A stretch of DNA of 64,000 nt, from assembly GCA_963827685.1 (NCBI GenBank), contig CAWHBU010000006.1, positions 96,001 to 160,000 of the forward strand, read 5' to 3'. Source of the stretch: an uncultured delta proteobacterium. Lineage in GTDB: Bacteria; Desulfobacterota; BSN033; UBA1163. Of this stretch, positions 14,560 through 43,380 are shown piece by piece. Below the pieces are notes generated by a model that ran no database searches, had not been told where the DNA came from, and saw only the letters and a list, made by a program, of their open reading frames with translations. The position numbers and the translations under genes are program-made. The first letter of the stretch is position 1; each line of letters begins with the position of its first letter.

Positions 14560-14636
<77 letters not shown>

Positions 14637-15812: not shown

Positions 15813-16206
15813 CGGATACCTCCTTTCCGAGGCCCTTGATCTGGTCTGGTTTCCCGTTACCAACAGTATACCCTTCTCCCTTCACCTCTTCAATGATTTT
15901 CCTAATGGTTCTCTTGATTCTTGGGTCCGATCGCTTCCGCAATGACCCAATAACCTTCCTGGTCTCCACCTTGACATCGACCACGGGTTTCTTCTGCCCT
16001 TGCATCCATACTTCGACCTCTTCCAGCTTGAATCTTACCAACCGGCCGATCCGGTAATGGGGTATCCTCTTTTCCTCCACCATCGCGTAAAGGTTGCTCA
16101 CCTTGATTCCCAGGTAGCGAGCGATGGCTTGGACATTTAAAAATCCTGATGATAGATCTCTTCCATTGGTCCTCTCTGCTTGAGGCTCTGACCCATGCTT
16201 TTCCAT
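15799..16206 (-). CDS. Excisionase-like HTH protein
   Basis: FLNVQAIARYLGIK.S.LY.MV...RIP.YRIGRLVRF; overlaps integrase start. Confidence 0.85.
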   Translation of the reverse strand: MEKHGSEPQAERTNGRDLSSGFLNVQAIARYLGIKVSNLYAMVEEKRIPHYRIGRLVRFKLEEVEVWMQGQKKPVVDVKVETRKVIGSLRKRSDPRIKRTIRKIIEEVKGEGYTVGNGKPDQIKGLGKEVSDGTI

Positions 16207-16255
16207 ATCAACTCCTTTTGCCAAACCCTCATGGTTGGCTTTCAGGAGCTTCGGT

Positions 16256-17476: not shown

Positions 17477-17722
17477 ATGAAGGCGTTGGATGAGATGATT
17501 GGTAAGAAGGTGGTTGTGGAAAGTTTTTATCACAAAGAAATTCACGGGATACTTGATTCAGTTGAAGAGCTGGGTGTGATTATTGATAGGCAAATATTTA
17601 TCCCCATGCGTGCTGTTTTTAGAATCTATTTAGAGGAGAGATTTGAAGGGGATAAGAAAGAGGAGAGTGAGAAAAAGAAACCAAACGTATTCTCTAATGA
17701 AGCAAAAGGTTTTGGATCATGA
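17477..17722 (+). CDS. Small protein with Sm/LSm/Hfq-like pattern
   Basis: LDEMIGKKVVVE...EIHGILDSVEELGVII...IFIPMRAVFRI matches Sm1/Sm2 spacing; GGAGG RBS; ATGA overlap with next gene. Confidence 0.6.
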   Translation: MKALDEMIGKKVVVESFYHKEIHGILDSVEELGVIIDRQIFIPMRAVFRIYLEERFEGDKKEESEKKKPNVFSNEAKGFGS

Positions 17723-19248
17723 TTGATGAAGAGAAACTCGAAGATATAAAAAGTTTCGTAAAACCATACTGGATGGCTTATGAACGAGGCCCATCAGAAT
17801 CTGTTGTGGAGAGTTTGCATGAGGTTGTTACTGAGGTCAGTGATACAGTTGTAAAAGATGATCCGTGGTTCCAAATGGTTAAGAAACATTCTGATGAAGC
17901 ATGGGATAGACTCCAAAAAATAAAATCTAAGCCTCAAACACAATCCGGGCCAGTTACTAAAAAAGGGAAGAAACCAAAAGCAGAATTTGCCCTATCTGAA
18001 AGAGGAATTAATAAAAGCCTTACACCAATCACTAAAAAGCCTGGAAAAGAGCTTACATTTCCAATTGAGTTAACGATAAATGGTGAGAGGTACGCTACCA
18101 GCGACTATTTTGGAGCACGAAACTTCATGATGATGGACCTGCTTTCTTTTCTTATCCTCCAAAAGGCGGGGTTTCCGAAGAAACGAATTACGTTGTTTAA
18201 TAGTATGGAGGATATTGAAAGGAGGGAGAAAGAGATAGAAGAGGAAAGGAAGGAATCGGAAAAGGAACGCGAAGAACTGGATATGGAACACGGAGGGCTG
18301 GATAAACCAAAAAAACCTATGACTCAAGAGGAATTACTCAGCTATTTTAAAAATGTAAAATATTGGGTGAGGTTTGATACTGATTTTTTTAGGAGGTTTA
18401 CAGGAAAAGAAAATGCTGAATCTAATGAAGTTCTCAATCTCCTTCTTCAAACATCCGCAAAGTTCATTATTTCATATCCTGTCCGAGTGCCGGTTGATGA
18501 AGAAGGCAAAATTCAAGAAAAGAAATATACCAACAAAATATTCACGAGTTTCTTCAATGCGGCGTGGATAGATGAAAAAGATAAGAATGGTGAAGTGAAA
18601 CATCGAACGTTCTATGCCTTTTTCAATACTGTCCTTGGAGAAATGTTTGTCAACAATCTCCTTTCCAAGGGATACGATATCATCGGCACCCGTCTATATC
18701 AATTATCATCTCTATCTCAGGTGTTTTTCAGACGGTTCATCGTTCACCATTCTCACTACGCTTCTCAGGTGATCGGTCTCCAGAGAATAAAAGAAGGGTT
18801 GAATCTTGGGGATGAAAATAAATCTCAATTATTAAACTACATCAAATCAGGAGCTCTTGAACCGTTGAAAAAAGCTGGTGCAATATCCTATTATGAGACA
18901 AGAGAGGGGATCAATGGTACTGAAATTGTAATCCAGAGATCGGATCGAAAGTATCTCATTTATCGCCGGAGATTGGAGTCCAAAAGAAAGAAGGGGAAAT
19001 CAAAACAATACCATGGCGGGAAAGTGGAGGGACAAGAGCAGAAAAAGTGGAATCAACGGGTTTTGGAAAGGAAATCAACGGGTTTTGTAAAAATAAGAGC
19101 CTTTAAATGGTTGAATTCATTCACCTTGTTATTTCCTATAATATTAAATAAAATTAAAAGGTTTTCCTTACCTCCTAAAGTCGGTAAGTCAAACCTCCAA
19201 AAACCAAATACCACAGAATCTCTTACTTCCTCTTCTGAGAAGGAGTAA
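17719..19248 (+). CDS. Putative plasmid-type winged-helix replication initiator (Rep3/TrfA-like)
   Basis: LYQLSSLSQ.FFRRF...IGL.RIK..LNL...N......IK..ALEPL...G.I..Y resembles the second winged helix of Rep proteins; iteron-like repeats and AT-rich tract at 3' end. Confidence 0.55.
   Translation: MIDEEKLEDIKSFVKPYWMAYERGPSESVVESLHEVVTEVSDTVVKDDPWFQMVKKHSDEAWDRLQKIKSKPQTQSGPVTKKGKKPKAEFALSERGINKSLTPITKKPGKELTFPIELTINGERYATSDYFGARNFMMMDLLSFLILQKAGFPKKRITLFNSMEDIERREKEIEEERKESEKEREELDMEHGGLDKPKKPMTQEELLSYFKNVKYWVRFDTDFFRRFTGKENAESNEVLNLLLQTSAKFIISYPVRVPVDEEGKIQEKKYTNKIFTSFFNAAWIDEKDKNGEVKHRTFYAFFNTVLGEMFVNNLLSKGYDIIGTRLYQLSSLSQVFFRRFIVHHSHYASQVIGLQRIKEGLNLGDENKSQLLNYIKSGALEPLKKAGAISYYETREGINGTEIVIQRSDRKYLIYRRRLESKRKKGKSKQYHGGKVEGQEQKKWNQRVLERKSTGFVKIRAFKWLNSFTLLFPIILNKIKRFSLPPKVGKSNLQKPNTTESLTSSSEKE
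19051..19160. repeat. Putative origin: two AATCAACGGGTTTTG repeats (22-bp period) plus AT-rich tract
   Basis: Copies at 19051-19065 and 19073-19087, followed by AT-rich sequence. Confidence 0.55.
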
Positions 19249-20021
19249 GGTAAGAAGTAAGTCAAATCCAAATGGCAGGAGAAACGGCTTTAGCTTTTGA
19301 CATAGTCACAATTCAAAAAATTCAGTTTCTGTTCTTCTTCTAATAAATCCAATTGTGCCAGAATCTCTTATTTTTTATTTCAGTTTAAATTAACCATCTC
19401 TGAAATAGAAATATAAGCTTTCTTTATCACATCTCCTTTGGATAAGAAATATTCAACTACCGCCGGAGTCTCTTCCCTTCTTATAAATTCAAATATTAAA
19501 GTTATCTCTTCATCATTCATTTACATTTAATTGAACAGCGAGCTGACCAGTTAGTATGGCCCGAGTCCCCTGTGTCGGATTCGTTGGGTTGGTGTGATGC
19601 GGTAATGAGGGTAGACTGCATCAGGAATTTGTGGGGTTTTTACTTGGTTGGAATCATTCGGATATTTATGCGGGAAATTGGTGGTTCACTGTTAATACCG
19701 CCCTCTCCACTTAATGAATAATAAGACACATTGTTCATAAAGATAAAGCCACGGAGGAAATTAAGGGAGAATGGAGACTACCCTCTCTGCTTTTAAGATA
19801 TAAATTCAAGATCACTGTCTGTTCTCTGTATTACAGGAGTGTCGTCAACTCGCACCATCCGTACACGGGCACAAAATGAACAACTTCGAATATAATGATT
19901 CAGCATCAAAGGTCTTGGCCAGAGCCTTTTCTGGCAAAGATAAGGAATCACTTTGCTGAAGAGTAGATTTTATTTTATAGTTTCCACTCTAAACGAAATA
20001 AAATTCCATGAGGTTTTAAGA

Positions 20022-21446: not shown

Positions 21447-21481
21447 GGAGTTCTTCAGAGGGGACGATCTGTTTGGGGTCA

Positions 21482-21660
21482 ATATTTGAGACAGCTGTTT
21501 AGGTGGGGGTAAAACACCTCCTTAACACCATTAAACACCCTTTTATAAGACGGTGGCTCTAACCCTAAAGGAAACAATGGAGGAGGCTGGAAGGGCTCTG
21601 CTGAAGATTGTCCCTGTAGAGGCTGAGGTGGTTATAGCAGACAGTTGGGCAGAGAAATAA
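21482..21660 (+). repeat. res-like site plus family-A DNA polymerase C-terminal remnant, copy 1
   Basis: Matches 28248-28425; encodes TVALTLKETMEEAGRALLKIVPVEAEVVIADSWAEK*. Confidence 0.8.
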
Positions 21661-21734
21661 CACCGGCTTCTGACACTTCGCTACTTACCTTTGATATATT
21701 ATCAGTCTATTCTTTAGCTGGCTGGCGATTACAT

Positions 21735-21790
21735 CTACAAGTCATTACTGGGGACCATATTCAAGAATCGAAGATTACAGGTTGAAAGTG
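21735..21790 (+). repeat. 56-bp repeat, inverted copy at 38959-39014
   Basis: 53/56 identity by manual alignment; weaker copy near 28493-28536. Confidence 0.85.
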
Positions 21791-21842
21791 TGTATGACGA
21801 GCAGATAGAAAAGGAATTAAGAAAAAGCGTTTTGCTCTTTCC

Positions 21843-22304
21843 TCAATTTTGTCTTCCCGAATCCTCGCGAAGATTTTCAAGAAATTTAGGAGGAATTTTG
21901 TAGCCCAAATCTTGTGCCTTTTTAATGTCCTTCCAAGATTTGTCGTATTCTTTATTTAAGTAATGGGCATTTGCTCGATTATAGTAGGCATCAGCACTCT
22001 TTGGGCCTATCTCAAGGGCCTTGGTGAAATCAAAGATCGCCCAATCAAATTGGCCTTTCTTCACATAGGCAATTCCCCGATGATAGTAGATGCCCGCATC
22101 CTTTGGGCCTATCTCAAGGGCCTTGGTGAAATCATCGACGGCCTGATCGAATTGACCTTTTTCCCCGTAGGCAATCCCACGATCGATGTAGAACTTAGCG
22201 TCCTTAGGCTTATCCTGTTTTTGTTGAGCGGAGGCATAGGAGAACAATAACAAGAGAACTATTGGCAGGATTATCCCTGTCAATTTATCCGCAGTATTTT
22301 TCAT
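21843..22304 (-). CDS. Exported TPR protein
   Basis: Signal-like N-terminus; three TPR units; 34-nt DNA duplication at 102-bp spacing. Confidence 0.85.
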   Translation of the reverse strand: MKNTADKLTGIILPIVLLLLFSYASAQQKQDKPKDAKFYIDRGIAYGEKGQFDQAVDDFTKALEIGPKDAGIYYHRGIAYVKKGQFDWAIFDFTKALEIGPKSADAYYNRANAHYLNKEYDKSWKDIKKAQDLGYKIPPKFLENLREDSGRQN

Positions 22305-22644
22305 AGTTCCAATCAAAAAGCCGAACTTATCCCAGCGTTGGCTTTTTAGGTAAGTCGTTACTGGTAACTTGTTTATCAAGAAATGTGACATTTGTCAATC
22401 AGGCAATTCAATGTGTTTAAGGTATTAACAGAGCCAATGTATTTTGCCGATTACGGTTTGAAATCTGCATCATTAGAGCAAAATGACTTCTTGCAGATTT
22501 CAGGAAAGACCATGCGGTACAATACCCCATCGACAGTCCATCGAGCAGGCGGGGGATAGGGTTTATTTTTTTGGATAGAGACCTCGAGGACTTAAATCCA
22601 CAATGACTATTCACGAGTCTAGGTGTAAACTATTTGGCTACCCG

Positions 22645-23304
22645 TCAAACTAACCAGCCTTTCTCCCTCCAATAATCATATTCCGCTGACCACTCCTCTT
22701 TGTGGATTTCGATAATTCTTCGAAAGTAGTTCCTTCGAGACAGGACTTCTTCCATTTCACGAGAAAACTCGGTCTTCTTTCTCATCGCCTGTACCAAATT
22801 TCTTCCCAACTCACTTGCTCTTTTCTTGATCTCTTCAGTGACTGGAACCACGCTCGAGACACCACCCACATATTGGGCTCCGCATACCAAGGAATAATGA
22901 TGTATGTAGTCCAAAACCATTTGCTGAGGCCCCCCTCCGGCGGTCGCCACAGCTCCTACGTATTTCCCTAACAACCTCTGACAGTGAATGAAGTGGGTTG
23001 ATCGATCAAGAAAAGTCTTCAAATAGCCCGTAATATTATCGATATAGACAGGGCTCGCAAAAATAATCCCATCACTCTCCAGCATCTTGTTCAGCAAGAG
23101 ATGAACATCGTCTTTGATCGGGCAGACCATCAAGTTCTTATGACAAGACTCGCAGTGCCGGCAGAAGTCAATTTTTAAATCGCAAAGATGCACGACCTCT
23201 GTTTGTTCTCCCTCTTTTTCCGCTCCTGAAAGAACCTCTTTGAGTAGAAGGAAAGTATTACTTCTGTTCTTGCGGGGACTGGCTGAAATACCCAACAGTT
23301 TCAT
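22645..23304 (-). CDS. Iron-sulfur flavoprotein/flavodoxin family protein
   Basis: GISASPR..SNT, C..C..C......C..KDD, FASPVY, K.FLDR. Confidence 0.88.
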   Translation of the reverse strand: MKLLGISASPRKNRSNTFLLLKEVLSGAEKEGEQTEVVHLCDLKIDFCRHCESCHKNLMVCPIKDDVHLLLNKMLESDGIIFASPVYIDNITGYLKTFLDRSTHFIHCQRLLGKYVGAVATAGGGPQQMVLDYIHHYSLVCGAQYVGGVSSVVPVTEEIKKRASELGRNLVQAMRKKTEFSREMEEVLSRRNYFRRIIEIHKEEWSAEYDYWREKGWLV

Positions 23305-23663
23305 CTTTGTCTCCTCTCTTTTCTCTGGAATCGACTTCATTTTTATAGCAAAAGTTAGCGAAATAACTTTAAATCGAAGCGTGAGTACTTGTCAATCATT
23401 GTGTCCTGCTTGACGAATCTCACAACTGGATTTTCGAGTTGGCGGGCAGGACCCATTGCTGAATGGCATCAAGAGCGTGCCTGTAATCCGTTCAATTATC
23501 CTGAATGAAACTTAATCTGGCAGATGCCGTCAAATTATCTCGTGACGAACGAGTACACCTACGAGGAGTAAACTGCGAACAACAATCCACTCCTCGGTCT
23601 ACATGAAAAATAAGTATTTGCGTCTTTCAAGATTAGTGGTTTTCAACCAACCCTTCCCAGACT

Positions 23664-24446
23664 TCAGGTTTCTATATATTTCTCAAACCGCTCCAATTGG
23701 GCCTCCAGCGATTGTATTTCCTGATAGAGTATCTCGGCATCCTGGGCCAATGCAGGATCCTTGGCCAATCGTGCTATTCGTCGGGAGATCGTTCCGATGA
23801 TTGTAATTCGGTTCCGAAACGCATCGGCGGTTTGTTTAACCATGGCTTCCTTCTTTCGGTAAGATTCAATCAATTGCTCTGATAGCTCGGCCTTACCGAC
23901 GGCTGCTCCAATTAACTCCCCCACCACCTTTAGATACTCGAAATCTTGGCCTGAGATCGGAACCCCCTCTTTACCGGAATCGACAATTAAGGCCCCTACC
24001 TTTTTCTCTAATTGGGTTAGCGTATCCACATACCAGAGTGGAATGATGGCTTTGATCTTGACCCTCTCTGCCAGGGTATGCCGGTGGCCTTCGATCTCTT
24101 TTGGATCAGTCAGGTTTAAAGGTATCCCTTTTTCAACAATCCCCCATACAATGCTTTCCTTGTGAACTGAAACTTGTTCTATCGGGCACTCATAGCTGCC
24201 CACCCAACAATGAAGCTTTAGCTTGTCACCTTCCATGAGGACGTATCGGGCCCGCTTTCCCAATCTTTGACTAACGTGATCAAGACAGGTCTTGATAAGA
24301 TGATCCCGGTTCGTACACCAGCTTACCAACCGCGCAATTTCCAGGAGATCTTGGTAACGCTTGACCAAGTCCTCTGCTTCAATTTTTGGCTTTTTAGCCC
24401 TTATTTTGGTTCCCTTTGCATTAGGTCTAACTTGATTCCGATTCAT
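23664..24446 (-). CDS. GAF-domain protein with degenerate HisKA-like tail
   Basis: KAIIPL...VGALIVD...D.EYL..VGELIG; ends with ADAFRNRIT.IG..SRRI and no ATPase domain. Confidence 0.7.
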   Translation of the reverse strand: MNRNQVRPNAKGTKIRAKKPKIEAEDLVKRYQDLLEIARLVSWCTNRDHLIKTCLDHVSQRLGKRARYVLMEGDKLKLHCWVGSYECPIEQVSVHKESIVWGIVEKGIPLNLTDPKEIEGHRHTLAERVKIKAIIPLWYVDTLTQLEKKVGALIVDSGKEGVPISGQDFEYLKVVGELIGAAVGKAELSEQLIESYRKKEAMVKQTADAFRNRITIIGTISRRIARLAKDPALAQDAEILYQEIQSLEAQLERFEKYIET

Positions 24447-24546
24447 TAGCTTTTTAGATTACTCATCTTTTTGGGTGGAAGAAGAACCCCCGGTGGGCAA
24501 TGTGATCTATGGACTCAGCCTTGGAATATTGAGAATGTGTCCTACT

Positions 24547-24795
24547 TTAACTTACAATGGTGACGCAATTTTGGCCTCCAAAAGGATTTTCAACACAGCC
24601 TGTACAACCTGGATCGTTCTGCCAATCTCCATCCACATAGAATCTATACTGGTATGTTCTGGGGGTAAGATTGAGGGAAATCTTCCACACTCCTTTCTTA
24701 TCCTTTTTCATGGGATGACTTCCTGGATTCCAATCATTGAAATCCCCTGCAATGGAGATACTCCCTGCATGGGGTGCTGAAAAATTGAAGTCCAC
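24547..24795 (-). CDS. CBM48/AMPK-type glycogen-binding domain protein (start uncertain)
   Basis: F..AP.A.S..IAGDFNDW, G.W...L.L....YQYRF.VDG.W..DP, NPFG..N. Confidence 0.8.
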   Translation of the reverse strand: MDFNFSAPHAGSISIAGDFNDWNPGSHPMKKDKKGVWKISLNLTPRTYQYRFYVDGDWQNDPGCTGCVENPFGGQNCVTIVS

Positions 24796-24869
24796 TTTTT
24801 TAGTTTTTCCTTCTTTGCTTTCTCTTTTCCCAACGTCGTTTTGATCTCTGATCCTCCCTCCACTTATTT

Positions 24870-26696
24870 CTAATGATCTTCGGCATCCTTTAATTCAACA
24901 AGAGGCAACATGATACAAAAGGTAGTCTGACCTTCCCTAGACTCCACGGACATTACCCCTTTCATGTTTTTGGTCAATCGAGTGCTGATGTAAAGCCCCC
25001 TCCCTCTGCCTTCGCCAAGAATAAATCGATCTTTTTCTTCTTCCGAGATCTGACCCGTATTATTGATCTCCACAACGCCCCATGTGTCCTTACGATAGGA
25101 CCGAATAGAAAGTTCTCCTCCTTCTTCAGGAATGGCATTGGAGGCGTTGTTAAGGAGATTATCTATCACTCTTTCAATATGCAGGGGAAAGCATCGAACC
25201 CATAAAGGAGATTCCCACTTTCCTTCTATCAATTGAATGTTCCCCCTATTCAACTCCTTGAGGGTTTCTTCATTGATTAGAAATCGCCTCTTCGATACCT
25301 CAGTTAGGTCAATGATCAATTCCTTTCCTTTCTCATGAAGAGTCAGCGCCAATTCTTGAATACGGGAAGTCTCCTTCAAAAGAATATCCAACGCCTGATC
25401 CACTTTCTCATTCTTAGGATAGGCTCCTTCCTTAAAGATCTTCTGGACCCGTTTGGCAAAGCCTGCTACGGCAATGGCAGGGTTCTTAAAATCATGAAGG
25501 ATGTCGTCCATCTTCTCCAACCTCAGTCCCTTCATCAATTCCTTCCCGAGGAAAGTAAAAATCTCAATCTGTTCATCCGTAAATCGTCGGTGCTGCGCTT
25601 GGGCATCAAAAACCAGAAAATAGTTGACCACCTCATTCACTTTTAAGGGGATGTAGAGGACCGAATGAATTTGCTGGCCCTCCAGAAAATGTTTGAGATC
25701 CATTGGAAGCAGACGACTTTCTTTAGGATTATTAATGAGAATATAGGCAGGAGAAATCTTCTCGTTTTCAAATTCACCAAAAGGTCCTGCCTGATTCACG
25801 ATGGCATCGATGTATGGCTCCTTCACAGAAAAGACTTTTCCAATCCCATGTTGTGTCTCCGGATACCCAGCCTCCAAAACGACATGCTGCCGATCTTCCA
25901 TCACAGAAAAGAGGGAACATCTCTGGATCTTCATGATGTCCACCAAATCCGGAATGACCGAGTCGAACAGATGCTTCATCTTGATCCCTTCACCCCTGGC
26001 CAATTTCTGGTAGATATGCTCCAAAATCTTGTCCTTGGTCACATTCAATTTATGAAGATAATTAATCTTCTTCAAAGCAATGACATAACCCACCCGTTTT
26101 GAAAACATCTCCGCAGTCTCGACCTCCAGCGGCGTAAACACCTTGTCTTCCTTTTTATAATAGATCTGGAGAACTCCCTCTGTATCGACTTCCTTGGAAA
26201 AACGCTGAAGGTAAATCGGGACGGCCAGCATCGAATGGATTCCAAGTTTTGCAACCTTTTCCTTATTCTTGTATCTCCCTTCTTTTAAGATATTAGGGAC
26301 CAAGTAACTTTGTCGTGTTTTGACCACCTCACCGGCGATCGTATCTTCAAAAGGAATGATCTCCTCACGATCTTCATGAAGGCCGGGGTAAGACCCATAA
26401 GAGATCATCTCCTTCTTTTCAGGATCGTATATCCGTATGCTCGAGGCCTCCGCATCCAGGTTTTCCACGACGGTCCTCGCCACAAGCTGAAGAATCTCCC
26501 TCTCCGTAAGAGAAGGATCTATGTCCAGGATCTTTTCGACCTGAGTGATCAATCGGTTTACATACCCGTAGAGCATTTCATCCTTAATTAGATCGGCTAC
26601 CTCATGCACATCTTCGAGGGAGAGGTTAATACGTTTCTCCAACAAACGAGAACTAATAGATTCAAGGCGCTTCTGGTCAATTTTCAGAGGATCCAT
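24870..26696 (-). CDS. GAF-GAF sensor histidine kinase
   Basis: Two GAF domains, HDFKNP H-box, NLLNNA N-box, GRGRGL G-box. Confidence 0.85.
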   Translation of the reverse strand: MDPLKIDQKRLESISSRLLEKRINLSLEDVHEVADLIKDEMLYGYVNRLITQVEKILDIDPSLTEREILQLVARTVVENLDAEASSIRIYDPEKKEMISYGSYPGLHEDREEIIPFEDTIAGEVVKTRQSYLVPNILKEGRYKNKEKVAKLGIHSMLAVPIYLQRFSKEVDTEGVLQIYYKKEDKVFTPLEVETAEMFSKRVGYVIALKKINYLHKLNVTKDKILEHIYQKLARGEGIKMKHLFDSVIPDLVDIMKIQRCSLFSVMEDRQHVVLEAGYPETQHGIGKVFSVKEPYIDAIVNQAGPFGEFENEKISPAYILINNPKESRLLPMDLKHFLEGQQIHSVLYIPLKVNEVVNYFLVFDAQAQHRRFTDEQIEIFTFLGKELMKGLRLEKMDDILHDFKNPAIAVAGFAKRVQKIFKEGAYPKNEKVDQALDILLKETSRIQELALTLHEKGKELIIDLTEVSKRRFLINEETLKELNRGNIQLIEGKWESPLWVRCFPLHIERVIDNLLNNASNAIPEEGGELSIRSYRKDTWGVVEINNTGQISEEEKDRFILGEGRGRGLYISTRLTKNMKGVMSVESREGQTTFCIMLPLVELKDAEDH

Positions 26697-27003
26697 AAAT
26701 TTTGTAATTAAGAATAATCCCAATCATGTCCCGTGCCGAAGCTATACCGGTTGCCAGGAAAAAGACCAGGAAGAAAGTGCTTATTGATAAAACTCTTTTC
26801 GTCTTTTCCCACCTTCTACTTTATTATGACCCATAAGAGACCGGAATTTTTTGCCTCTCTCTACGCACCTGAAAAAGGAGGCAAAAATAATCCCGAATCT
26901 TCTTCCCCAATTGGTTACAGGGGACGCTTTCCCTTTGCTAACCACACCAATTGGTTTCAAAGTCGGGAGTAGGAGCATATTCCTTCCTCAGTACCCCTTA
27001 TCT

Positions 27004-27687
27004 TTACCGGTGTCCCCCGCCACCGCCATGGCCGCCTCCTCCATAACCTCCTCCATGGCCTCCTCCGTGAGAGCCCCCAAAGCCGCCACCTCTGCCACCA
27101 CCTCCTCGGAATCCTCTGCCTCGGAATCCCCTGCCTCCAAAACCACCAAGGTAGTAATAACCACCGTAGTAGTATAGATATGGATCGTAATAGGGGTAAT
27201 AATATGGTTCAGGGTAGTAATATGGTTCATATCCCCCTTCATATCCCTCATAGACAGCAGGTGGGTACTCACCGTATTGTCTCGCTTGTTCTTTATCAGA
27301 CGCAACCGCCAACCTCCACTGATTATCAATAAGAACCTGAACCGCCATCAACGCCTCGTCTTTGTTCATCGCTAATTTGCCGGAATCCAGTGCCACACCG
27401 ATAGCATTTCGCACCTCTCCGATAATATCGGGCGTCAAGGGATAATCAGCAATCCATCCATTTTTAGGTGCAATACCTACCGAAGCCAACTTACTCTCAG
27501 CCTCTGCATCGCTCTTAACCTCTCCTATTTTCAGTGCCTCAGCCAGCTTCATTGCAAAAGAACCTTCACGTACCAAACGCTGTTCAATCGGAGGGGGTTC
27601 CGGTTTGTTCTGCTCTGACTGTGCGTTAACCATTAATGGTATCAAGACCAAAAAAACTGTAGCACCTATGAAAAGTAATTTTTTCAT
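27004..27687 (-). CDS. Exported protein with Tyr/Pro-rich and Gly-rich C-terminus
   Basis: GGAGGTGA RBS, signal peptide MKKLLFIG...VNA, low-complexity tail. Confidence 0.75.
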   Translation of the reverse strand: MKKLLFIGATVFLVLIPLMVNAQSEQNKPEPPPIEQRLVREGSFAMKLAEALKIGEVKSDAEAESKLASVGIAPKNGWIADYPLTPDIIGEVRNAIGVALDSGKLAMNKDEALMAVQVLIDNQWRLAVASDKEQARQYGEYPPAVYEGYEGGYEPYYYPEPYYYPYYDPYLYYYGGYYYLGGFGGRGFRGRGFRGGGGRGGGFGGSHGGGHGGGYGGGGHGGGGGHR

Positions 27688-27861
27688 TAGTCTCACCTCC
27701 ACTCTCTTGCTGACCATGATAAAGTCTTCTCGCACTCCAGTCTTCCTACGAAGTCTGTTAAATAAAGACCCGCTCTGCATTTTACAACCTAATCTACTGG
27801 AACTACCAGACGTTCTTTGACAATTGAATACGAATATTGATTTATTTTTTAACATTCTTCC

Positions 27862-28080
27862 CTATTCCTTAAATCTAAGGATTTCACCCGAATTTTTATC
27901 TATCGTTATTGTGATGAAAAAGATGTCGTTAAAATCTATATTCTCGCCTAAAATCTCTCTTGCCCAATTTATAACCGATTCCTGGGTTATCCTTGCAGGG
28001 TTCTTTCTCCTTTCAGGGAGTGTCCCAATATGCTGATACCCTTCTATTGCATCTCGCCAGTAAAATTCATAAGCTACCAT
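27862..28080 (-). CDS. Small hypothetical protein
   Basis: MVAYEFYW...IGTLPERRKNP.RIT.ESVINW; purine-rich RBS. Confidence 0.7.
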   Translation of the reverse strand: MVAYEFYWRDAIEGYQHIGTLPERRKNPARITQESVINWAREILGENIDFNDIFFITITIDKNSGEILRFKE

Positions 28081-28247
28081 GCCTTAACCCCCCTTTATGG
28101 ACATACAAGCCATTTGATGATAAACACCTCTTTAATTCTTTAGACGTATTGTTTAGGTCTATTATTCAAAATTCTTCGTGCAATCATTGCCTTTTTCATC
28201 GACCTTTTAAAGCGATAAATGCTTTAAATGAATAGGATTAACCGGTT

Positions 28248-28425
28248 ATATTTGAGACAGCTGTTTAGGGAGGGGATAAACACGCCTTAACACCATTAAA
28301 CACCCTTTTATAAGACGGTGGCTCTAATCCTGAAAAGAACAATGGAGGAAGCCGAAAGGAGTTTTCTGAAGATTGTCCCGGTAGAGGCTGAGGTGGTTAT
28401 AGCAGACAGTTGGGCGGAGAAATGA
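28248..28425 (+). repeat. res-like site plus family-A DNA polymerase C-terminal remnant, copy 2
   Basis: Matches 21482-21660; encodes TVALILKRTMEEAERSFLKIVPVEAEVVIADSWAEK*. Confidence 0.8.
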
Positions 28426-28760
28426 CGCTAACTCGGAAGACTGACCCTTAAAGATATTGCAGGTCAGTTATTGCTGGGATAAGGACTTCACCACAAGTCA
28501 TCACTCCCAGATAGCTCTTAGAGCTAAGGATTACGGGAGGTAATCTGCATAAAAAAAGCAGGACCATTTCTGATCCTGCCTGGGTAATAGCCTCTAATAC
28601 CCAGACTTACCGGTCGGGGTATAAGAAACATAGTATAAAGGCAAGAAGAATGTCTCCTTTGAATCTATCGGACCTTGCAACAAACAATCATTCGCTTTTT
28701 TCCATCCAATTCAGTGTTATAGAGAAAACTTCCGTAAGAGGTTGTGCAAATGAAAAGCTC

Positions 28761-28804: not shown

Positions 28805-28832
28805 AAGATACAACTCATTGAGGAGGGAGTCC

Positions 28833-29378
28833 ATGTGCCCATTATCGAGTTCCCGTGACAAGATTGTCGATGCCGCAGAGAAGGTCGTGATCGAAGCTGG
28901 TGCTGCTCACATGACCCTTGACGCTGTAGCCGAGAAAGCAAGTGTCAGCAAAGGAGGATTGCTCTACCACTTCCCTAATAAAGAGGCGCTCCTTAGAGCA
29001 ATGCTGGAAAGACGAATGCAACGTTTCAATGAAGCTCAAGAGAAAAAATGCGCAGAGCTTCAAAATGGGCCGACACGGGAAATAAAGGCCTACATCCATT
29101 CCACCCTGTGGCGCGACCGTATGACCGATCGGATCGGTGCTTCACTTCTGGCTGCTATCGCACATAACCCCAAACTTCTTGATCCTGCGCGTGAAGACTA
29201 CCGGAGACGCTTAAATAAGCTTATCCCGGCCGGACTCGGATTTGAACGAGCTGCCATTATCGTACTCGCCGTGGATGGCCTTCGGCTTCTTGAACTCCTG
29301 TCTCTATCTCCCTTTAATAAGAACCAACGGAAAAAGGTGACCGAGGAACTGCTCAGGCTTGTCGATGAAGATGTCTAA
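28833..29378 (+). CDS. TetR-family regulator
   Basis: TLDAVA.KA.VSKGGLLYHFPNKEAL. Confidence 0.93.
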   Translation: MCPLSSSRDKIVDAAEKVVIEAGAAHMTLDAVAEKASVSKGGLLYHFPNKEALLRAMLERRMQRFNEAQEKKCAELQNGPTREIKAYIHSTLWRDRMTDRIGASLLAAIAHNPKLLDPAREDYRRRLNKLIPAGLGFERAAIIVLAVDGLRLLELLSLSPFNKNQRKKVTEELLRLVDEDV

Positions 29379-29463
29379 AAACGGACGAAGGAGTTAAGTG
29401 AGGATGCATCCTATTTTTAAAATAAATTTGGAGCGGATATGCGGATATAAGGAGGGATTTTGG

Positions 29464-30681
29464 ATGGTAAGGAAAAATCGAGGAGTTAGCTTTTGTCATG
29501 TGAGCGTACTCATAGTCATGGTCTTTGGGCCAACGCTTCTCCTTCTGCCCGGTTGCAAGAAAGGACAAGGGCCAGAGGCATCCCCTCTACCCACCGTTGA
29601 AGTTGTGGATGTCATCAAGAAGGATGTCCCTGTATATTCGGAATGGATCGCGTCAACGGACGGCCTTGTTAATGCGACAATTCGTGCACAGATCCAAGGC
29701 TACCTGATCAAGCAGAACTACAAGGAAGGAGATTTGGTCAAGAAAGGACAGATCCTCTTCGAGATTGACCCGCGACCCTTCGAAGCAGTGCTGGAACAGG
29801 CCAAAGGGCAACTCGCACAACAGCAAGCAACTTGGGAAACCGCCAAGGCTAACCTGGAGCGGATCAAGCCTCTGGCAGAGCAGAAAGCCGTAAGCATGAA
29901 AGACCTCGATGACGCCACCGGCGCCGAACAGGCAACGCGCGCGGCAGTGATCGCAGCACGTGCGGTAGTCGATAAGGCCCAGGTTGACCTCGGTTTCACC
30001 AAAATTACCTCTCCCATTAATGGCATCGCCGGTATTGCTAAGGCGCAGATTGGTAACCTTGTCGGTCCTGGATCCATAGAGGAACTGACAACCGTTTCAA
30101 CCGTTGACCCTATCAAAGTATACATTCCGATGAGCGAGCAAGAGTATCTGAGGGTTATGCAGAATGGTCGAGGGCATACCCAGCGGATGATGCCCCTCGA
30201 TTTGATTCTTGCTGACGGGAGCGTCCATCCACACAAAGGGGTGCTTGCCTTTGCGGATCGCCAGGTGGATGTGAGGACCGGTACGATCAAGGTCGCCGCC
30301 CTCTTCCCCAATCCTGGAAACGTCCTCCGGCCTGGACAATTCGCCAGGGTTCGTGCGCGGACCATGACCAAGAAAGGGGCTCTTCTGGTTCCACAGCGGG
30401 CGGTCACCGAACTACAGGGAAGCTACCAGGTGGCAGTGGTGGATCCTGACAACAAAGTGGATATACGACCGGTAAAGGTGGCCGACCGTGTCGATAACCT
30501 CTGGGTCATTGACGAGGGGTTGAAGCCGGGTGAGCGTGTCGTAGCAGAAGGTATCCAGAAAATCAACCAGGGCATGGACGTAAATCCGAAGCCCTACGGT
30601 GCCCAGCCCCAGGCCACGATAGAGGCACCTGCGATGTCTAAGGCAAAACCCGCAGCCCAAGCCGAGACTACGAAGAGGTAA
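29464..30681 (+). CDS. RND efflux periplasmic adaptor
   Basis: Lipobox-like LPGC, IRAQI.G, EG..VKKGQ.LF.IDP, I.SPI.G, LRPGQF; start approximate. Confidence 0.9.
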   Translation: MVRKNRGVSFCHVSVLIVMVFGPTLLLLPGCKKGQGPEASPLPTVEVVDVIKKDVPVYSEWIASTDGLVNATIRAQIQGYLIKQNYKEGDLVKKGQILFEIDPRPFEAVLEQAKGQLAQQQATWETAKANLERIKPLAEQKAVSMKDLDDATGAEQATRAAVIAARAVVDKAQVDLGFTKITSPINGIAGIAKAQIGNLVGPGSIEELTTVSTVDPIKVYIPMSEQEYLRVMQNGRGHTQRMMPLDLILADGSVHPHKGVLAFADRQVDVRTGTIKVAALFPNPGNVLRPGQFARVRARTMTKKGALLVPQRAVTELQGSYQVAVVDPDNKVDIRPVKVADRVDNLWVIDEGLKPGERVVAEGIQKINQGMDVNPKPYGAQPQATIEAPAMSKAKPAAQAETTKR

Positions 30682-30687
30682 GCCGGT

Positions 30688-33600
30688 ATGTCAAAGTTCT
30701 TTATCAACCGTCCCATCGTGGCGATGGTCATCTCCATTTTCTTTGTCCTCTTAGGACTCATTGCGATGGTGGGGTTGCCCGTGGCTCAATTCCCGGAGAT
30801 CGTCCCTCCGGAGATCCAGATCTTAACTACCTATACGGGTGCCGATGCAGAAACCGTAGAACAATCGGTTGCCACACCCCTCGAGGAGCAGATCAGTGGC
30901 GTCGACAATATGAACTACATGTATTCCGTGAATGCGAGCAACGGCACGATGAGGATGTTCGTCAACTTCGATGTCAAGACTGACCCAAACACGGATCTGC
31001 TTTTCACCCAGATGCGCCAGAACCAAGCCCAAGCCCAGCTTCCACTCGATGTGCGCAATTATGGCGTGACGATGCAAAAAGCGAGATCGTCACCGCTTAT
31101 GCTCATTGGCCTTTACTCCCCAAAGGGAACGTATGACGGAACGTTTATGGCGAACTATGCCAATATCAACCTCCTCGATCCCCTCGTCCGCGTGCCCGGC
31201 ATCGCTATGGTCAACATCTTTGGCGCGGGGCAGTATGCGATACGCATCTGGGTTAAGCCCGACACCCTTGGGAAGCTCGGGATTACCGTTCCTGATATTG
31301 TGAACGCCGTCCAGAAGCAGAATACGGTCAACCCGGCCGGACAGATTGGGAGCGAGCCTGTCCCCCCAGGGCAAGAATTCACCTATACGGTTCGCACCCA
31401 GGGTCGCCTCATCTCTGCGGAGGACTTCGGCGCCATCGTTCTCCGCGCCAACCCGGATGGATCGATCGTTCGGTTGAAGGACGTAGCTCAAATCGAACTG
31501 GGGGGCCAGACTTACAACCTCTGGAGTCGGATAGATGGCAAACCCGCCGCCGTCATGGCAGTCTACCAATTGCCGGGCACAAATGCCATTGCCACAGTCC
31601 AGGGTGCCAGGAAGGTGTTGGACGAGGCCCGGAAACGGTTCCCTACAGACCTCGATTATACAGTTGCCCTTGACACAACACGATCCATTAAGGAAGGAAT
31701 CAGCGAGATCGTCAAAACGCTTTTTGCAGCACTGGCTCTGGTCATCCTCGTGGTCTTCGTCTTCCTTCAGGGATGGAGGGCAACCCTTATTCCAGCCCTA
31801 GCTGTTCCGGTCTCGCTTATCGGCACCTTTGCCGTCTTTCCCATGCTGGGGTTCTCGATCAACACCTTGTCGCTTTTTGGTCTTGTGCTGGCCATCGGAC
31901 TGGTCGTGGATGACGCCATCGTCGTCGTGGAGGCGGTGGAACGCCATATAGAGGAAGGCTTGTCTCCTAAGGAAGCGTCGCTCAAGGCCATGCAAGAGGT
32001 TTCGGGGCCGGTCACGGCCATTGCCCTGATCCTCGCGGCGGTCTTCATCCCTACGGTCTTTATACCAGGTATCACAGGCAGGCTCTATCAGCAGTTTGCA
32101 GTGACCATCGCCATCTCGGTTCTCATCTCAGCCTTCAACGCCCTGACCCTCAGTCCGGCCCTCTGCGCCCTCCTCCTCAAGCCAAGGAAAGAGACGCGGG
32201 GTCCTCTGGGCGCTTTTTTCAAGTCTTTTAACCGGATCTTCGGCCGGGCCTCCAAGGGCTATGTGAGCGTGTGTGGAAGTTTGATCCGGAAGAGTGGCCT
32301 CAGTCTTCTCTTTCTTGTCGGGATAGCGATCCTTGCCGGTCTTCTTGGCAAGGGGATTCCCATGGGATTCTTGCCGGAAGAAGACCAAGGATACTTGTTC
32401 ATCAACGTGGCCCTGCCCGATGCAGCATCGCTTCAGCGCACGGACGAGACGTGCAAAAAAGTTGAGGAGATTCTCAAGAACACCCCGGGCATCGAACACT
32501 ATCAGACGGTCACGGGTCTTAGCTTGATGAGTATTGCTCAGAATACCTATAGCGGCTTTTTCTTTGTAACATTGAAAGAGTGGAAGGAGCGAAAAAAGCC
32601 GGAGGAGCAATACGACGCCATCATGGCGCACCTGAACAATGAACTCAGCAAACTGCCTCAGGCCGTGGCTTTTGCCTTTCCTCCTCCGGCCATCCAAGGC
32701 ATCGGACTGGCTGGGGGAGCAACGCTGGTTCTCGAGGATCGGGCAGGTAAACCAATCACTTTCCTGGCAGGGAACGTTAACAAGTTCGTCGAGGCCGCTC
32801 GCAAGAGACCTGAACTCGCCAGAGTGACGACAACCCTTCTGCCAGGTGTGCCTCAGCTCTTCGTGAAGGTGGACCGAGACAAGGTGCTCAAACAGGGCGT
32901 TGACCTGGCTCAGGTCTACCAGACCCTTCAAACCTTCATGGGCGGCTACTTTATCAACTACTTTAACCGATTTGGTCGTCAGTGGCAGGTCTATGTCCAG
33001 GCAGAAGGAAAATACCGCACCAGGGCGGAAAATGTAGGGCAGTTCTACGTGCTCAACGACAGGGGCGATCCCGTGCCGCTTTCGGCCGTGACAGCAATAG
33101 AGTCCCGCCCCGGTCCTGAATTCACGATGCACTACAACCTGTACCGTTCGGCCCAGATCAATGTCATGGGCAGGCCCGGCTTCAGTTCAGGCCAGGTGAT
33201 GAAGGCGCTCGAAGAAGTCTTCCGTCAGACGATGCCGGCCGAGATGGGGCTCGACTACATCGGCATGAGCTTCCAGGAAAAGAAGGCGCAGGAAGGTATC
33301 CCGGCATCAGCCATCTTCGGATTTTCGCTGCTGTGTGTCTTTCTGATCCTTGCGGCGCAGTATGAGAGCTGGTCCCTGCCGTTCAGTGTTCTCCTTGGAA
33401 CCCCTGTTGCTGTCTTTGGTGCCTTCGCCGCAATATGGCTTCGTGGCCAGGTGAACAATGTTTATGCTCAGATCGGTCTCATCGTCCTCATCGGTCTTGG
33501 TGCGAAGAATGCCATCCTTATTGTCGAGTTCGCAAAGAAGAGACATGAACAGGGAAAATCCCTTACCGATGCCGCCCTTGAGGGAGCCCAGCTGCGTCTC

Positions 33601-33843
33601 AGGCCGATTCTAATGACCTCCTTCGCCTTCCTCCTCGGCGTGCTCCCACTTGCCTTTTCCAGGGGTGCGGGTGCAGTGGCACGCCAGATCATGGGCACCG
33701 CGGTCATGGGTGGCACGACGGCTGCATCGGTAATCGCTATATTCCTCATCCCCGTGACATTTTACGTCGTCGCAAAACTCTCCGGTCGCCGCAGGAAAGA
33801 GGGACCATTGAAAAAGAGAGGGAGGAGACCATGCGTAATATAA
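30688..33843 (+). CDS. HAE1-family RND efflux transporter
   Basis: [38 protein letters not shown]. Confidence 0.95.
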
Positions 33844-35290: not shown

Positions 35291-35469
35291 TCTCTGGATT
35301 GCCATCTGCCTCAAAATTAATATTCAGTACAAGTGCGAAATGGACCTTGATATTTTCCTTTTCCGGAACAGACATACTTAATAACCTTAGCCCACCAGTT
35401 GAGAGAGGTTTAGTCGGTACCATTTCAAATCGGGATTGCGGGGAATTAAAAAAGGGGGGTGATTCATCG

Positions 35470-35896
35470 ATGTTCAAGAAAATCTTATTTTGCACCGATT
35501 TTTCCGAGAATTCTGACCATGCCTTCTCGTATGCCTTTAATCTCACAAAAGCTTATAATGCAACGCTTTTAATTCTCCATGTCATCATTGAACCGGTTAG
35601 CTACTATTGGTCCACACCAAAAGGGGTGGATGAACTGATCACCAAGCAGACTGAGCGGGTGAAGCAGGAAATAAATACTCACTACCTGCAAAAGGTTGAA
35701 GGGTTCAAGAATTACGGGATTTTCACAAGAGAGACAGACGAGGGAAGAGTCTGCGGACCTTATTGTTATGGGAACCCATGGAAGGACAGGGATAGACCAT
35801 CTTATCTTAGGTAGCACCGCAGAGAACGTGGTCAGAAAATCGCCTTGCCCCGTATTGACGGTGCGACTCCCTGGAAAAAAATTCATAATGCCATAA
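35470..35896 (+). pseudogene. Universal stress protein with internal deletion/frameshift (~35740)
   Basis: FKKILFCTDFS in one frame; [13 protein letters not shown]...LGSTAE.VVR.SPCPVL in another. Confidence 0.85.
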
Positions 35897-38894: not shown

Positions 38895-38957
38895 GTATAA
38901 CAAGTGCGTGCACCTGATCGCCGAAACTGCCGGCTCCGGGCGACGCTCGTGTTATGC
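38895..38957 (+). other. attC site (63 bp)
   Basis: R'' GTATAAC, L'' GCGT(G)CACC with extra base, L' GGCGACGC, R' GTTATGC. Confidence 0.8.
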
Positions 38958-43331: not shown

Positions 43332-43380
43332 GGACTGAAAATCCTCGTGTCCGTGGTTCGATTCCGCGACCCGGCACTTT
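43332..43380 (+). repeat. attR core (49 bp)
   Basis: Identical to 14588-14636. Confidence 0.97.

What the first reader, a model, noticed from the sequence alone, without database searches (positions are those of the whole stretch)
21482..28425. Cargo blocks delimited by a res-like site fused to the same cut point of two different polA alleles
Seen: two ~178-bp copies, each with ATATTTGAGACA, three (T)AAACACC-like boxes and TTTTATAAGACG, then the last ~36 codons of a protein ending VPVEAEVVIADSWAEK*. The coding parts differ at many synonymous positions (CTA/CTG, AAG/AAA, GAG/GAA, GCT/GCC, CCT/CCG, GCA/GCG, TAA/TGA), yet both begin at the same junction. Known: this tail resembles mobile-element family-A polymerases, and TGTCTC/CGTCTTATAA resemble serine-resolvase half-sites. 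Inference: recurrent site-specific recombination captures the cargo lying downstream of polA in related elements and stacks it here, a cassette-accretion mechanism distinct from integrons. No serine recombinase is present in the window.
Basis: partly seen in the sequence, partly recalled or inferred. Interest (0 to 1): 0.75.

Follow-up and report, generated by a model that had tools for sequence, protein, structure and literature searches.

The report
Polymerase-gene relics inside a tRNA-Phe island
The two repeats are leftover 3' ends of a mobile-element primase-polymerase gene, each fused to a conserved non-coding module, and they sit inside a composite genomic island at a tRNA-Phe gene; they are not resolvase sites.

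Summary
Two about 180-bp copies (21482-21660, 28248-28425; 88% identical) share one junction between an AACACC-box module and the last 35 codons of a family-A polymerase. The tail is polymerase-derived: full-length Toprim-primase/PolA fusion genes (806-882 aa) with 75-91% identical ends exist in metagenomes.

The resolvase/cassette reading is not supported. The genome has no serine recombinase. The same junction occurs in a third copy here and in at least 8 further distinct loci of relatives and metagenomes. It belongs to a nested deletion series (M5-long, site-long, short+10, short), and all relics share derived changes, so it looks inherited, not re-made.

Both copies lie in a 28.7-kb composite island between 49-nt tRNA-Phe repeats (14588-14636, 43332-43380). 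The island carries a tyrosine integrase and excisionase-like gene, an integrase fragment, IS110 and terminase remnants, like tycheposon-type accretion islands.

Two things remain unexplained. Orphan tails diverge in a codon-like way (third positions twice as variable; pN/pS about 0.3). The module is far more conserved than its flanks, and its distances do not track tail distances. Recombination with functional alleles, or selection on the unit, stays open.

The parts
14560..14633 (+). tRNA-Phe (GAA), integration target of the island
   Evidence: ARAGORN; Rfam tRNA 68.5 bits
14588..14636 (+). attL: 49-nt direct repeat (3' part of tRNA-Phe plus 3 nt)
   Evidence: alignment, 49 invariant columns; (22-mer found exactly twice, 0 expected)
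14727..15863 (-). tyrosine integrase (378 aa)
   Evidence: PF00589 E=3.7e-21, SAM-like N domain
15799..16224 (-). excisionase-like HTH_17 protein
   Evidence: PF12728 E=1.1e-12
17719..19248 (+). 509-aa ORF of unknown family, in the place where a replication gene would be expected; no homology shown
   Evidence: no Pfam or PHROG hit; no similarity to the L043 upstream ORF
19500..19705 (+). M5: conserved non-coding module that in other loci directly abuts the long polA relic
   Evidence: 74% to C6:179499-179699 just upstream of copy D; also in L026, L027, L072, L084
19859..19946 (+). M6: short conserved module just upstream of the MFS cargo gene
   Evidence: matches C3:480796-480880 (88%), C3:1021950-1021886 and C6:494094-494031; contiguous with M5 in L084
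19953..21446 (+). MFS transporter cargo gene between M5/M6 and module A
   Evidence: PF07690 E=6.3e-50; L084 has a different MFS (29-39% aa) between the same flanks
21482..21552 (+). module ('site') copy A, truncated on its left; AACACC boxes and CAGCTG centre
21553..21660 (+). polA tail A: 35 codons plus TAA, short form (from about residue 772 of the 806-aa gene)
   Evidence: tblastn of P0002 residues 772-806, 83%
21661..21800 (+). conserved sequence downstream of the polA stop (type II) and an M4 repeat (about 21735-21798)
   Evidence: 89% (my count) to G005 L035 downstream in the alignment
21843..28080 (-). cargo block between the copies: TPR, FMN reductase, GAF, GAF-histidine kinase, and 283-aa and 72-aa unknowns, all on the minus strand
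   Evidence: Pfam; no PHROG hit for the two unknowns
28224..28317 (+). module ('site') copy B; 96.5-97.5% identical to modules in two other MAGs
   Evidence: L036 86 nt at 96.5%, L028 81 nt at 97.5%
28318..28425 (+). polA tail B: 35 codons plus TGA, short form
   Evidence: tblastn of P0002 residues 772-806, 86%
28426..28600 (+). diverged downstream region with an M4 repeat (B type) and a minus-strand terminator-like hairpin (28581-28556)
28818..35814 (+). TetR regulator, RND efflux pump (HlyD, AcrB, split OEP) and Usp: further cargo
   Evidence: Pfam
36834..37430 (+). 198-aa tyrosine-integrase fragment (catalytic domain only): remnant of an older element
   Evidence: PF00589 E=2.4e-35
39019..40212 (-). 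IS110-family transposase
   Evidence: PF01548/PF02371
40732..43039 (-). terminase large- and small-subunit-like genes next to attR: phage or satellite remnant
   Evidence: phrog_38 E=2e-39; phrog_51 E=1.5e-7
43332..43380 (+). attR: second copy of the 49-nt tRNA-Phe 3' repeat; conserved chromosome (rsmE, prmA) resumes after it

Best explanation
Copies A and B belong to a dispersed family of relics of one gene. That gene is the 3' end of a Toprim-primase/family-A-polymerase fusion, which is the replication gene of integrative elements in these uncultured Thermodesulfobacteriota. In the relic lineage the polymerase body was lost, and a conserved non-coding module of about 200 nt with AACACC boxes came to abut the remaining codons at one ancestral junction. 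The 'short form' seen in the window arose from the longer form by nested small deletions. The junction is therefore identical by descent, not re-created by a recombinase. Both copies sit inside a 28.7-kb composite island at tRNA-Phe (14637-43331). This island was built by successive arrivals and decay of integrase-borne elements: one intact integrase with an excisionase-like gene next to the tRNA, one integrase fragment, IS110, and terminase remnants next to attR. Shown: gene origin of the tail, island borders, family distribution, lack of a resolvase, and the junction variants. Inferred: the order of the deletion series, that each relic marks the remains of a separate element or recombined segment, and that tyrosine-integrase integration plus ordinary homologous recombination between the repeated units moved and stacked the blocks. 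What the AACACC module does (protein-binding site such as an origin or operator) is not known.
For: Tail origin:
- The 58-aa long form hits PF00476 at profile positions 331-381/381, E=1.5e-7.
- Two full-length proteins of 806 and 836 aa (PF00476) are 79% and 75% identical over 91% of the relic. P0002 carries Toprim and DNA_pol_A.
- The metagenome locus L043 holds an 882-aa Zn-ribbon-primase/Toprim/PolA gene.
- P0002 residues 772-806 are 83%, 86% and 91% identical to tails A, B and the C3 copy.
- The chromosomal polA is a different gene on contig C4.

Family distribution:
- 4 copies lie in this genome.
- 7 of 61 related genomes have matches, only in genera g1 and g2.
- 48 metagenome loci were found.
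- 0 of 9 tails examined in relatives are joined to a full gene.

One junction by descent:
- 11 distinct short-form copies carry it.
- The +10-nt variants (L035, L072, L085) and the long form joined about 28 codons upstream form a series.
- All relic types share the derived ATGGAGAGG..TCTTTGC stretch where intact genes read ATGATTGTGGGTTGTG.
- The AU test does not reject one clade for the short forms (p=0.41).

Island:
- The 49-nt tRNA-Phe repeat lies at 14588-14636 and 43332-43380.
- The island holds an integrase and an HTH_17 protein, an integrase fragment and IS110, and terminase-like genes.
- Synteny with relative G010 stops at the tRNA and resumes at 43.6 kb. G010's own tRNA-Phe island holds an integrase 3' remnant and a module plus long tail.
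- A tRNA lies in 5 of about 19 distinct relic loci.

Published parallel:
- Passages of bioRxiv 10.1101/2020.12.28.424599 describe tRNA islands built by repeated integration of integrase-plus-replication-module elements. Older elements are pushed inward, and fragmented integrases are left behind.
Against: Four results do not fit a simple duplicate-and-drift history:
- Relic tails do not diverge like dead DNA. Diversity by codon position is 0.146/0.154/0.307 in 24 relic tails (Mann-Whitney p=1.9e-5).
- Pooled pN/pS is 0.315 in 25 in-frame tails (tails with internal stops were dropped from that count).
- Among 11 short forms, pS is 0.33 and downstream divergence 0.43, but pN is 0.12 and module divergence 0.17. 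Module and tail distances are uncorrelated (Spearman -0.19, p=0.16).
- All 11 short-form tails keep the frame.

Three further points are unexplained or weak:
- Module B is 96.5-97.5% identical to modules of other species, while the tails differ by 14-20%.
- No internal tRNA repeat or integrase separates block A from block B, so tandem integration of whole elements is inferred, not seen.
- The tree of tails is almost unresolved (2 of 29 inner branches supported), so single origin is allowed rather than shown.
Confidence: 0.6

Rival explanations
1. Homology-anchored accretion. Resident polA-tail relics act as landing pads. Incoming elements with a functional primase-PolA gene recombine with the relic by homologous recombination or gene conversion within the about 100-nt coding tail. 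This refreshes the tail with a functional allele and stacks cargo between tails.
For: Five observations fit this rival:
- The tails show codon-like divergence, with third positions twice as variable.
- Module and tail distances are uncorrelated.
- A and G005 L035 differ by 19% in the tail, but by my count on the alignment by only about 11% (9 of 83) in the downstream DNA. Their pS is 0.39 and pN 0.13. This suggests a mosaic history.
- Similarity between A and B ends sharply at the stop codon.
- The first 21 codons of long relics, by contrast, evolve without codon pattern (0.24/0.23/0.25).
Against: No full-length primase-PolA gene was found in this genome or in 55 genomes of the order, so donors are not at hand. 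The two intact alleles with DNA in the tail tree (L043, L047b) form a separate long branch. Conversion should also refresh the first 21 codons of long relics, which instead decay. No recombinant intermediates were seen.
Confidence: 0.2
2. The unit is a selected functional module, not a relic. The AACACC module is a regulatory or replication (iteron-like) site, and the tail is translated as a 27-35-aa peptide derived from the polymerase C-terminus. Such a peptide could, for example, interfere with incoming elements.
For: The module is highly conserved across species (96.5-97.5%). pN is below pS, and the frame is intact in 11 of 11 short-form tails. An in-frame ATG is preceded by AAGGA in most copies (sequence). 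The stop codon is kept at the same place in 9 of the 11.
Against: Copy B has lost the AAGGA. Promoter-like matches are no more frequent than in shuffles. Long forms lose the start codon and catalytic residues, and only 3 of 15 keep an ATG with an open 57-codon frame. No consensus RNA structure was found. A 35-aa end of a polymerase palm has no known autonomous role (recalled).
Confidence: 0.12
3. First reader's model. A res-like site and a serine resolvase repeatedly recombine at one cut point in different polA alleles, capturing downstream cargo as cassettes.
For: The junction is identical in A, B and the C3 copy, with synonymous differences in the tails. One Logan contig reads a tail-B-like sequence to 28394, then 13 unmatched letters, then 21643 onward. 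Another joins 21419 to 28267. These could be circle and deletion forms.
Against: PF00239 has 0 matches in the genome, while the control rings in 12 of 14 genomes. No resolvase appears in any scanned flank. The junction has indel variants and a longer precursor form. The module is absent from every locus with a long polA match. The read joints are single contigs of depth 5-6.5 laid at 90% likeness. They have sides of 34-62 nt and unmatched letters, as paralogues in related organisms would give.
Confidence: 0.04
4. The unit is a non-autonomous transposable element (MITE-like) mobilised in trans by a transposase.
For: Copies are dispersed between unrelated genes. DDE or IS3 transposases lie within 6 kb in 3 of 14 relatives' loci (L026, L028, L030).
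Against: No terminal inverted repeats were found. Left borders are ragged and differ between copies. No target-site duplication is evident. No transposase family is shared between loci.
Confidence: 0.04

Closest known systems
Tycheposon-type tRNA islands (Hackl et al., bioRxiv 10.1101/2020.12.28.424599; passages read)
   Same: The elements integrate at a tRNA and carry a tyrosine integrase plus a small replication module (primase, polymerase, helicase) and cargo. Repeated integration at the same tRNA pushes older elements inward. Degenerate remnants such as fragmented integrases lie scattered in the island.
   Different: This is another phylum (Thermodesulfobacteriota MAGs). The replication gene is a Toprim-primase/PolA fusion. 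The remnant that persists and spreads is the last 35-57 codons of that gene fused to an AACACC-box module. No internal partial tRNAs separate the blocks.
SCC composite islands of staphylococci (recalled; only a table fragment on CCPol, a family-A polymerase working with a primase-helicase complex, was seen in PMC10201439)
   Same: These are integrative elements that can encode a family-A polymerase. Tandem cargo blocks are delimited by direct repeats that contain the last codons of a gene.
   Different: In SCC the repeated gene end belongs to the host target rlmH, and the joints are made by Ccr serine recombinases. Here the repeated end belongs to the element's own polymerase, and no serine recombinase exists in the genome.
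Integron cassette arrays
   Same: Blocks of unrelated genes are separated by a recurring recombination-site-like sequence.
   Different: There is no attC-type imperfect palindrome: 0 inverted repeats and no conserved hairpin. The blocks are multi-gene, some with all genes on the opposite strand. The only intact recombinase is a tRNA-island integrase.
PolA fusions with primase domains (PMC10201439, passages read)
   Same: N-terminal primase fused to a family-A polymerase, as in the apicoplast TOPRIM-primase/helicase/PolA polyprotein and in bacterial AEP-primase/PolA fusions.
   Different: P0002, P0003 and L043 join a Zn-ribbon/Toprim primase directly to the polymerase without a helicase. No close relative was found among 50,697 phage records (at most 32% identity). 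I did not place them in that paper's clusters.

Membership tests
Family-A DNA polymerase (PF00476), C-terminal part | Significant match to the end of the DNA_pol_A profile, including motif C (HDE) | tested here: met
   The long relic (58 aa) matches profile 331-381/381 with E=1.5e-7, 31.1 bits, below the 34.3-bit whole-protein cut-off. The 41-aa short form alone gives no hit, but is 83-91% identical to residues 772-806 of the PF00476 protein P0002.
Family-A DNA polymerase (PF00476), functional gene | Complete polymerase domain in one open frame | tested here: not met
   Open frames through the tails are 51-101 aa in 9 of 9 relatives' loci. In the window a stop lies 6 codons upstream of the tail.
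res site / serine resolvase system | A serine recombinase (PF00239) encoded nearby or at least in the genome | tested here: not met
   0 matches in the genome (94.5% complete); the control rings in 12 of 14 genomes. None.
res site / serine resolvase system | Paired inverted half-sites around a central crossover dinucleotide, in two or three subsites | tested here: inconclusive
   Only a CAGCTG centre and direct (not inverted) AACACC boxes are present. No inverted repeat of 30 nt or more. Shorter half-sites were not scored against a model.
Integron cassette (attC) | Imperfect palindrome that folds into a hairpin | tested here: not met
   Consensus fold -4.65 kcal/mol; 1 of 14 pairs shows a compensatory change; 0 inverted repeats.
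tRNA-integrated genomic island with tyrosine integrase | Direct repeat of the tRNA 3' end at both borders | tested here: met
   49 nt identical at 14588-14636 and 43332-43380.
tRNA-integrated genomic island with tyrosine integrase | Integrase gene next to the tRNA, and a break of synteny with relatives | tested here: met
   PF00589 integrase at 14727-15863. Alignment with G010 runs to 14707 and resumes at 43623.
tRNA-integrated genomic island with tyrosine integrase | Excision or integration activity | not testable with these tools
   Only assembled contigs of public runs were available.
MITE / non-autonomous transposon | Terminal inverted repeats and target-site duplication | tested here: not met
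   No inverted repeats; ragged left borders.

The most novel reading that the evidence does not exclude
The module-plus-tail unit is not junk but a maintained cis-acting 'landing pad'. The orphan end of the polymerase gene would serve as a homology anchor, and the AACACC-box module as a protein-binding origin or recombination enhancer. Incoming primase-PolA elements or their cargo would recombine at this anchor. The tails would then be repeatedly overwritten by functional alleles, which explains their codon-like divergence. Multi-gene cargo blocks would be stacked between tails. This would be a recombinase-independent route of cassette accretion inside tRNA islands.
Probability: 0.15. Interest if true: 0.7.

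Novelty: new variant of a known kind. Interest (0 to 1): 0.4.

Why it matters
The analysis turns an apparent new cassette system into something mostly familiar: a composite tRNA island holding decayed replication modules. It also defines a so far undescribed primase-PolA integrative-element lineage in peat and sediment Thermodesulfobacteriota. It defines, too, a relic family whose orphan gene ends still evolve like coding DNA. If that pattern reflects recombination with incoming elements, relic gene ends would be a simple, general way in which islands capture new cargo.

Tried and rejected
- **RNA families:** Rfam at gathering score on the window and at E up to 5 on 19200-22000 gave nothing at the unit.
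- **RNA structure:** a consensus fold of 12 modules showed no structure.
- **Promoters and terminators:** scans gave no more matches than shuffles.
- **AACACC boxes:** 8-mer boxes do not cluster at attL or attR (9 in the window against about 16 expected), so they are not evident arm sites of the island integrase.
- **Plasmid records:** the module had no match in 72,556 records.
- **Search for the full gene:** P0002 was not found in genome contigs or viral contigs. It was not found full-length in 55 genomes of the order. Phage records reach at most 32% identity.
- **M5 as upstream region of intact genes:** BLAST against the L042 and L043 upstream regions found nothing. A sensitive tblastn found polymerase homology only back to about residue 730, in L026.
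- **509-aa ORF as the element's helicase:** it has no similarity to the L043 upstream ORF and no Pfam or PHROG hit. That L043 ORF itself looks doubtful.
- **Earlier notes of this scan:** nothing was found by place or by sequence.
- **Public runs:** no RNA holder is listed.
- **Laying reads:** only Logan contigs could be laid. These were single-contig joints 28394 to 21643 (X9, 13 unmatched letters), 21419 to 28267 (X4), and 19687 to 21559 and 19699 to 21640 (X4). They cannot be told from paralogous copies in related organisms and are not used as evidence.
- **Tree of tails:** it is too poorly resolved to show or reject a single origin.
- **Papers:** supplementary files of the two papers were not seen. 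The tycheposon supplements may list replication-gene families that bear on the comparison.


Full report
**1. The observation**

The two copies are there. The repeat finder gives 21507-21661 / 28272-28426 (155 nt, 86%) and 21482-21517 / 28248-28283 (89%). BLAST of the 180-nt unit gives 88% identity between them. Each copy reads as follows:
- ATATTTGAGACAGCTG, then AACACC boxes, then TTTTATAAGACG;
- then GTG GCT and onward, 35 codons in all, ending ...VPVEAEVVIADSWAEK plus a stop.

Tail A is 21553-21660 and tail B is 28318-28425. A and B differ by 7.0 synonymous and 7.0 non-synonymous changes, over 24.8 and 80.2 sites (pN/pS 0.31).

**2. The tail is the end of a mobile-element polymerase gene**

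The genome's own polA lies on another contig, is intact and ends differently. Four places in the genome match the unit:
- copy A;
- copy B;
- a third full copy on contig C3 (86%);
- a longer, frameshifted fragment (copy D) 20 kb beyond the window, which reaches back to the HDE motif.

Long relics from relatives hit the last 51 positions of PF00476 (E=1.5e-7). A protein search with a 57-aa long relic, restricted to longer proteins, found two full-length proteins of 806 and 836 aa, 79% and 75% identical. These proteins carry Toprim and DNA_pol_A domains. Their last 35 residues are 83%, 86% and 91% identical to tails A, B and C3. A metagenome contig (L043) holds an intact 882-aa Zn-ribbon-primase/Toprim/PolA gene. 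In L042 a D5-type helicase gene lies just upstream of such a gene.

No full-length copy was found in any of these searches:
- this genome;
- 55 genomes of the order;
- the species-representative collection;
- IMG/VR.

Phage polymerases are at most 32% identical.

**3. The copies belong to a dispersed relic family**

Seven of 61 related genomes hold matches, all in two genera of one family. An exact module pattern occurs in 4 stretches of 185,579 species' genomes, all Thermodesulfobacteriota or 'delta proteobacterium' MAGs. Forty-eight metagenome loci were retrieved. None of 9 tails examined in relatives is joined to a whole gene.

Flanking genes differ from locus to locus: transporters, kinases, defence genes and others. 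No recombinase family is shared between loci.

The forms fall into a series:
- **M5-long:** a non-coding module, M5, followed by decayed polymerase sequence from about residue 730. Seen in copy D, L026 and L027.
- **Site-long:** the AACACC module joined at about residue 741-747.
- **Short+10:** the module, then about 10 extra bases that match the bases just before the long relic's ATG, then the tail from about residue 769. Seen in L035, L072 and L085.
- **Short:** the form seen in the window.

All relic forms share a derived stretch (ATGGAGAGG..TCTTTGC) where the four intact genes read ATGATTGTGGGTTGTG or a close variant. The simplest reading is one relic lineage that lost sequence stepwise from the left. 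The 'same junction' is then inherited. An AU test does not reject a single clade of the 12 short-form rows (p=0.41). The tree itself is nearly unresolved, with 2 of 29 inner branches supported.

**4. Where the copies lie**

A tRNA-Phe gene (14560-14633) is followed by a tyrosine integrase and an HTH_17 excisionase-like gene. The last 49 nt of the tRNA region recur at 43332-43380. Alignment with relative G010 runs up to the tRNA and resumes at 43.6 kb, at rsmE and prmA. The window therefore holds a 28.7-kb island, laid out as follows:
- integrase, excisionase-like gene, small ORFs and a 509-aa unknown;
- M5/M6, an MFS transporter, module A and tail A;
- six minus-strand genes, then module B and tail B;
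- TetR, an RND pump and Usp;
- an integrase fragment, HNH, IS110, and terminase large and small subunits, then attR.

G010's smaller island at the same tRNA contains a remnant of the integrase 3' end and a site-long relic.

This layout matches what was described for tycheposon islands. Those are built by repeated integration at one tRNA of elements that carry an integrase, a replication module and cargo. Older elements are pushed inward, and fragments are left behind (passages read). No internal tRNA repeat separates the blocks here. That each block was once a separate element is therefore an inference.

**5. The resolvase idea**

PF00239 has no match in the 94.5%-complete genome, while the control search rings in 12 of 14 genomes. 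It also appears in none of the ORF sets scanned: 27, 133, 55 and 41 ORFs. The module is absent from every locus with a long polymerase match. The module has direct AACACC boxes, two or three on the left and three on the right of a segment of about 75 nt with a CAGCTG centre. Complete copies span about 200 nt. It shows no conserved RNA fold and no match in plasmid records. It looks like a protein-binding DNA element, but I cannot say for which protein.

**6. What does not fit a plain relic**

Four results stand out:
- Across 24 relic tails, third codon positions are twice as variable as first and second (0.307 against 0.146 and 0.154; p=1.9e-5).
- Pooled pN/pS is 0.315 (tails with internal stops were left out of that count).
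- Among 11 short forms, pS is 0.33 and downstream divergence 0.43, but pN is 0.12 and module divergence 0.17. Module and tail distances are uncorrelated.
- All 11 short-form tails keep the frame.

Module B is 96.5-97.5% identical to modules of two other MAGs. Copy A and G005's L035 differ by 19% in the tail. By my count on the alignment, they differ by only about 11% (9 of 83) in the DNA just downstream. In contrast, the first 21 codons of 15 long relics show no codon pattern (0.24/0.23/0.25; two of the 15 break off early). Only 3 of the 15 keep an ATG with an open 57-codon frame.

Two readings remain open. Either the tails are repeatedly overwritten by functional alleles through homologous recombination, or the unit is under selection of its own.

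**7. Reads**

Only assembled contigs of public runs could be laid. The best holder covers 29 of 30 bins at about 5x. Single contigs in other studies join 28394 to 21643 (with 13 unmatched letters) and 21419 to 28267. These are the shapes of a circle or duplication and of a deletion. They come at 90% likeness, low depth and short sides, in samples that hold related organisms with paralogous copies. They carry no weight.

**8. Verdict**

The sequence observation is confirmed. The polymerase origin of the tail is confirmed and made precise. The res-site and recurrent-cut mechanism is not supported. The region is a composite tRNA-Phe island with two members of a dispersed primase-PolA relic family. 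The codon-like evolution of the orphan tails and the strong conservation of the AACACC module are real and unexplained, and they keep a recombination-based accretion model alive at modest probability.

Noticed in passing
window 21735-21798 and 28482-28581; also G000 C2:13544, 446101, 690987, 880982, 1093465, 1086082, 438458; C3:420226, 909622; C6:134951 (window 38951-39014), 33533, 30713: M4 is a dispersed repeat of about 70 nt with two subtypes and at least 14 copies in this genome. It lies just beyond the conserved DNA downstream of both tails. The B subtype is followed by a hairpin plus T-run on the minus strand. No Rfam match. It could be an attachment target or a REP-like element.
   Followed up: partly
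window 19500-19705 (M5) and 19859-19946 (M6): Conserved non-coding modules upstream of the MFS cargo gene. M5 directly abuts the long polymerase relic at C6:179499-179699 and in G010. M5 and M6 are joined at C3:480713-480880. M5 (with M6 in L084) plus a different cargo plus module and tail recurs in metagenome loci L072 and L084.
   Followed up: partly
G000 C6:179789-179962 (locus L004), 20 kb beyond the window end: A longer, frameshifted relic of the same polymerase end (from the HDE motif). Its downstream sequence is of the type seen after the intact gene in L043. It lies next to a TGT-family (queuine tRNA-ribosyltransferase-like, PF01702 E=6.8e-14) gene.
   Followed up: partly
window 40732-43039 (-): Terminase large-subunit-like (phrog_38, E=2e-39) and small-subunit-like genes directly inside attR. 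They look like the remnant of a phage or a phage satellite at the oldest end of the island.
   Followed up: no
window 21963-22166: The TPR gene holds a 102-nt tandem repeat (77% identical). Contigs of other samples go back 102 or 204 nt or skip 110 nt here, which suggests repeat-number variation between populations.
   Followed up: no
window 33859-34206 and 34343-35290: The outer-membrane factor (OEP) of the RND efflux operon is split into two ORFs, possibly a frameshift or an assembly error.
   Followed up: no
window 59959-60033 (-) and 6506-6712 (+): A c-di-GMP-I-GGC riboswitch (70.4 bits) and a cobalamin riboswitch (65.3 bits) upstream of the cob genes.
   Followed up: no
loci L034, L086, L087, L088 (G004:C86 and three metagenome contigs), 3121-4478: An identical short-form unit lies next to a Pycsar-like pair (cyclase domain plus PycTM effector) and a NOV_C-domain protein. 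The same sequence was recovered from four sources.
   Followed up: no
locus L047 (metagenome), 283-391 and 1170-1523: One contig carries a relic tail, then a 155-aa ORF, then a larger piece of the polymerase gene (from about residue 690) with the other type of downstream sequence. This is a tail upstream of a fuller gene copy.
   Followed up: no
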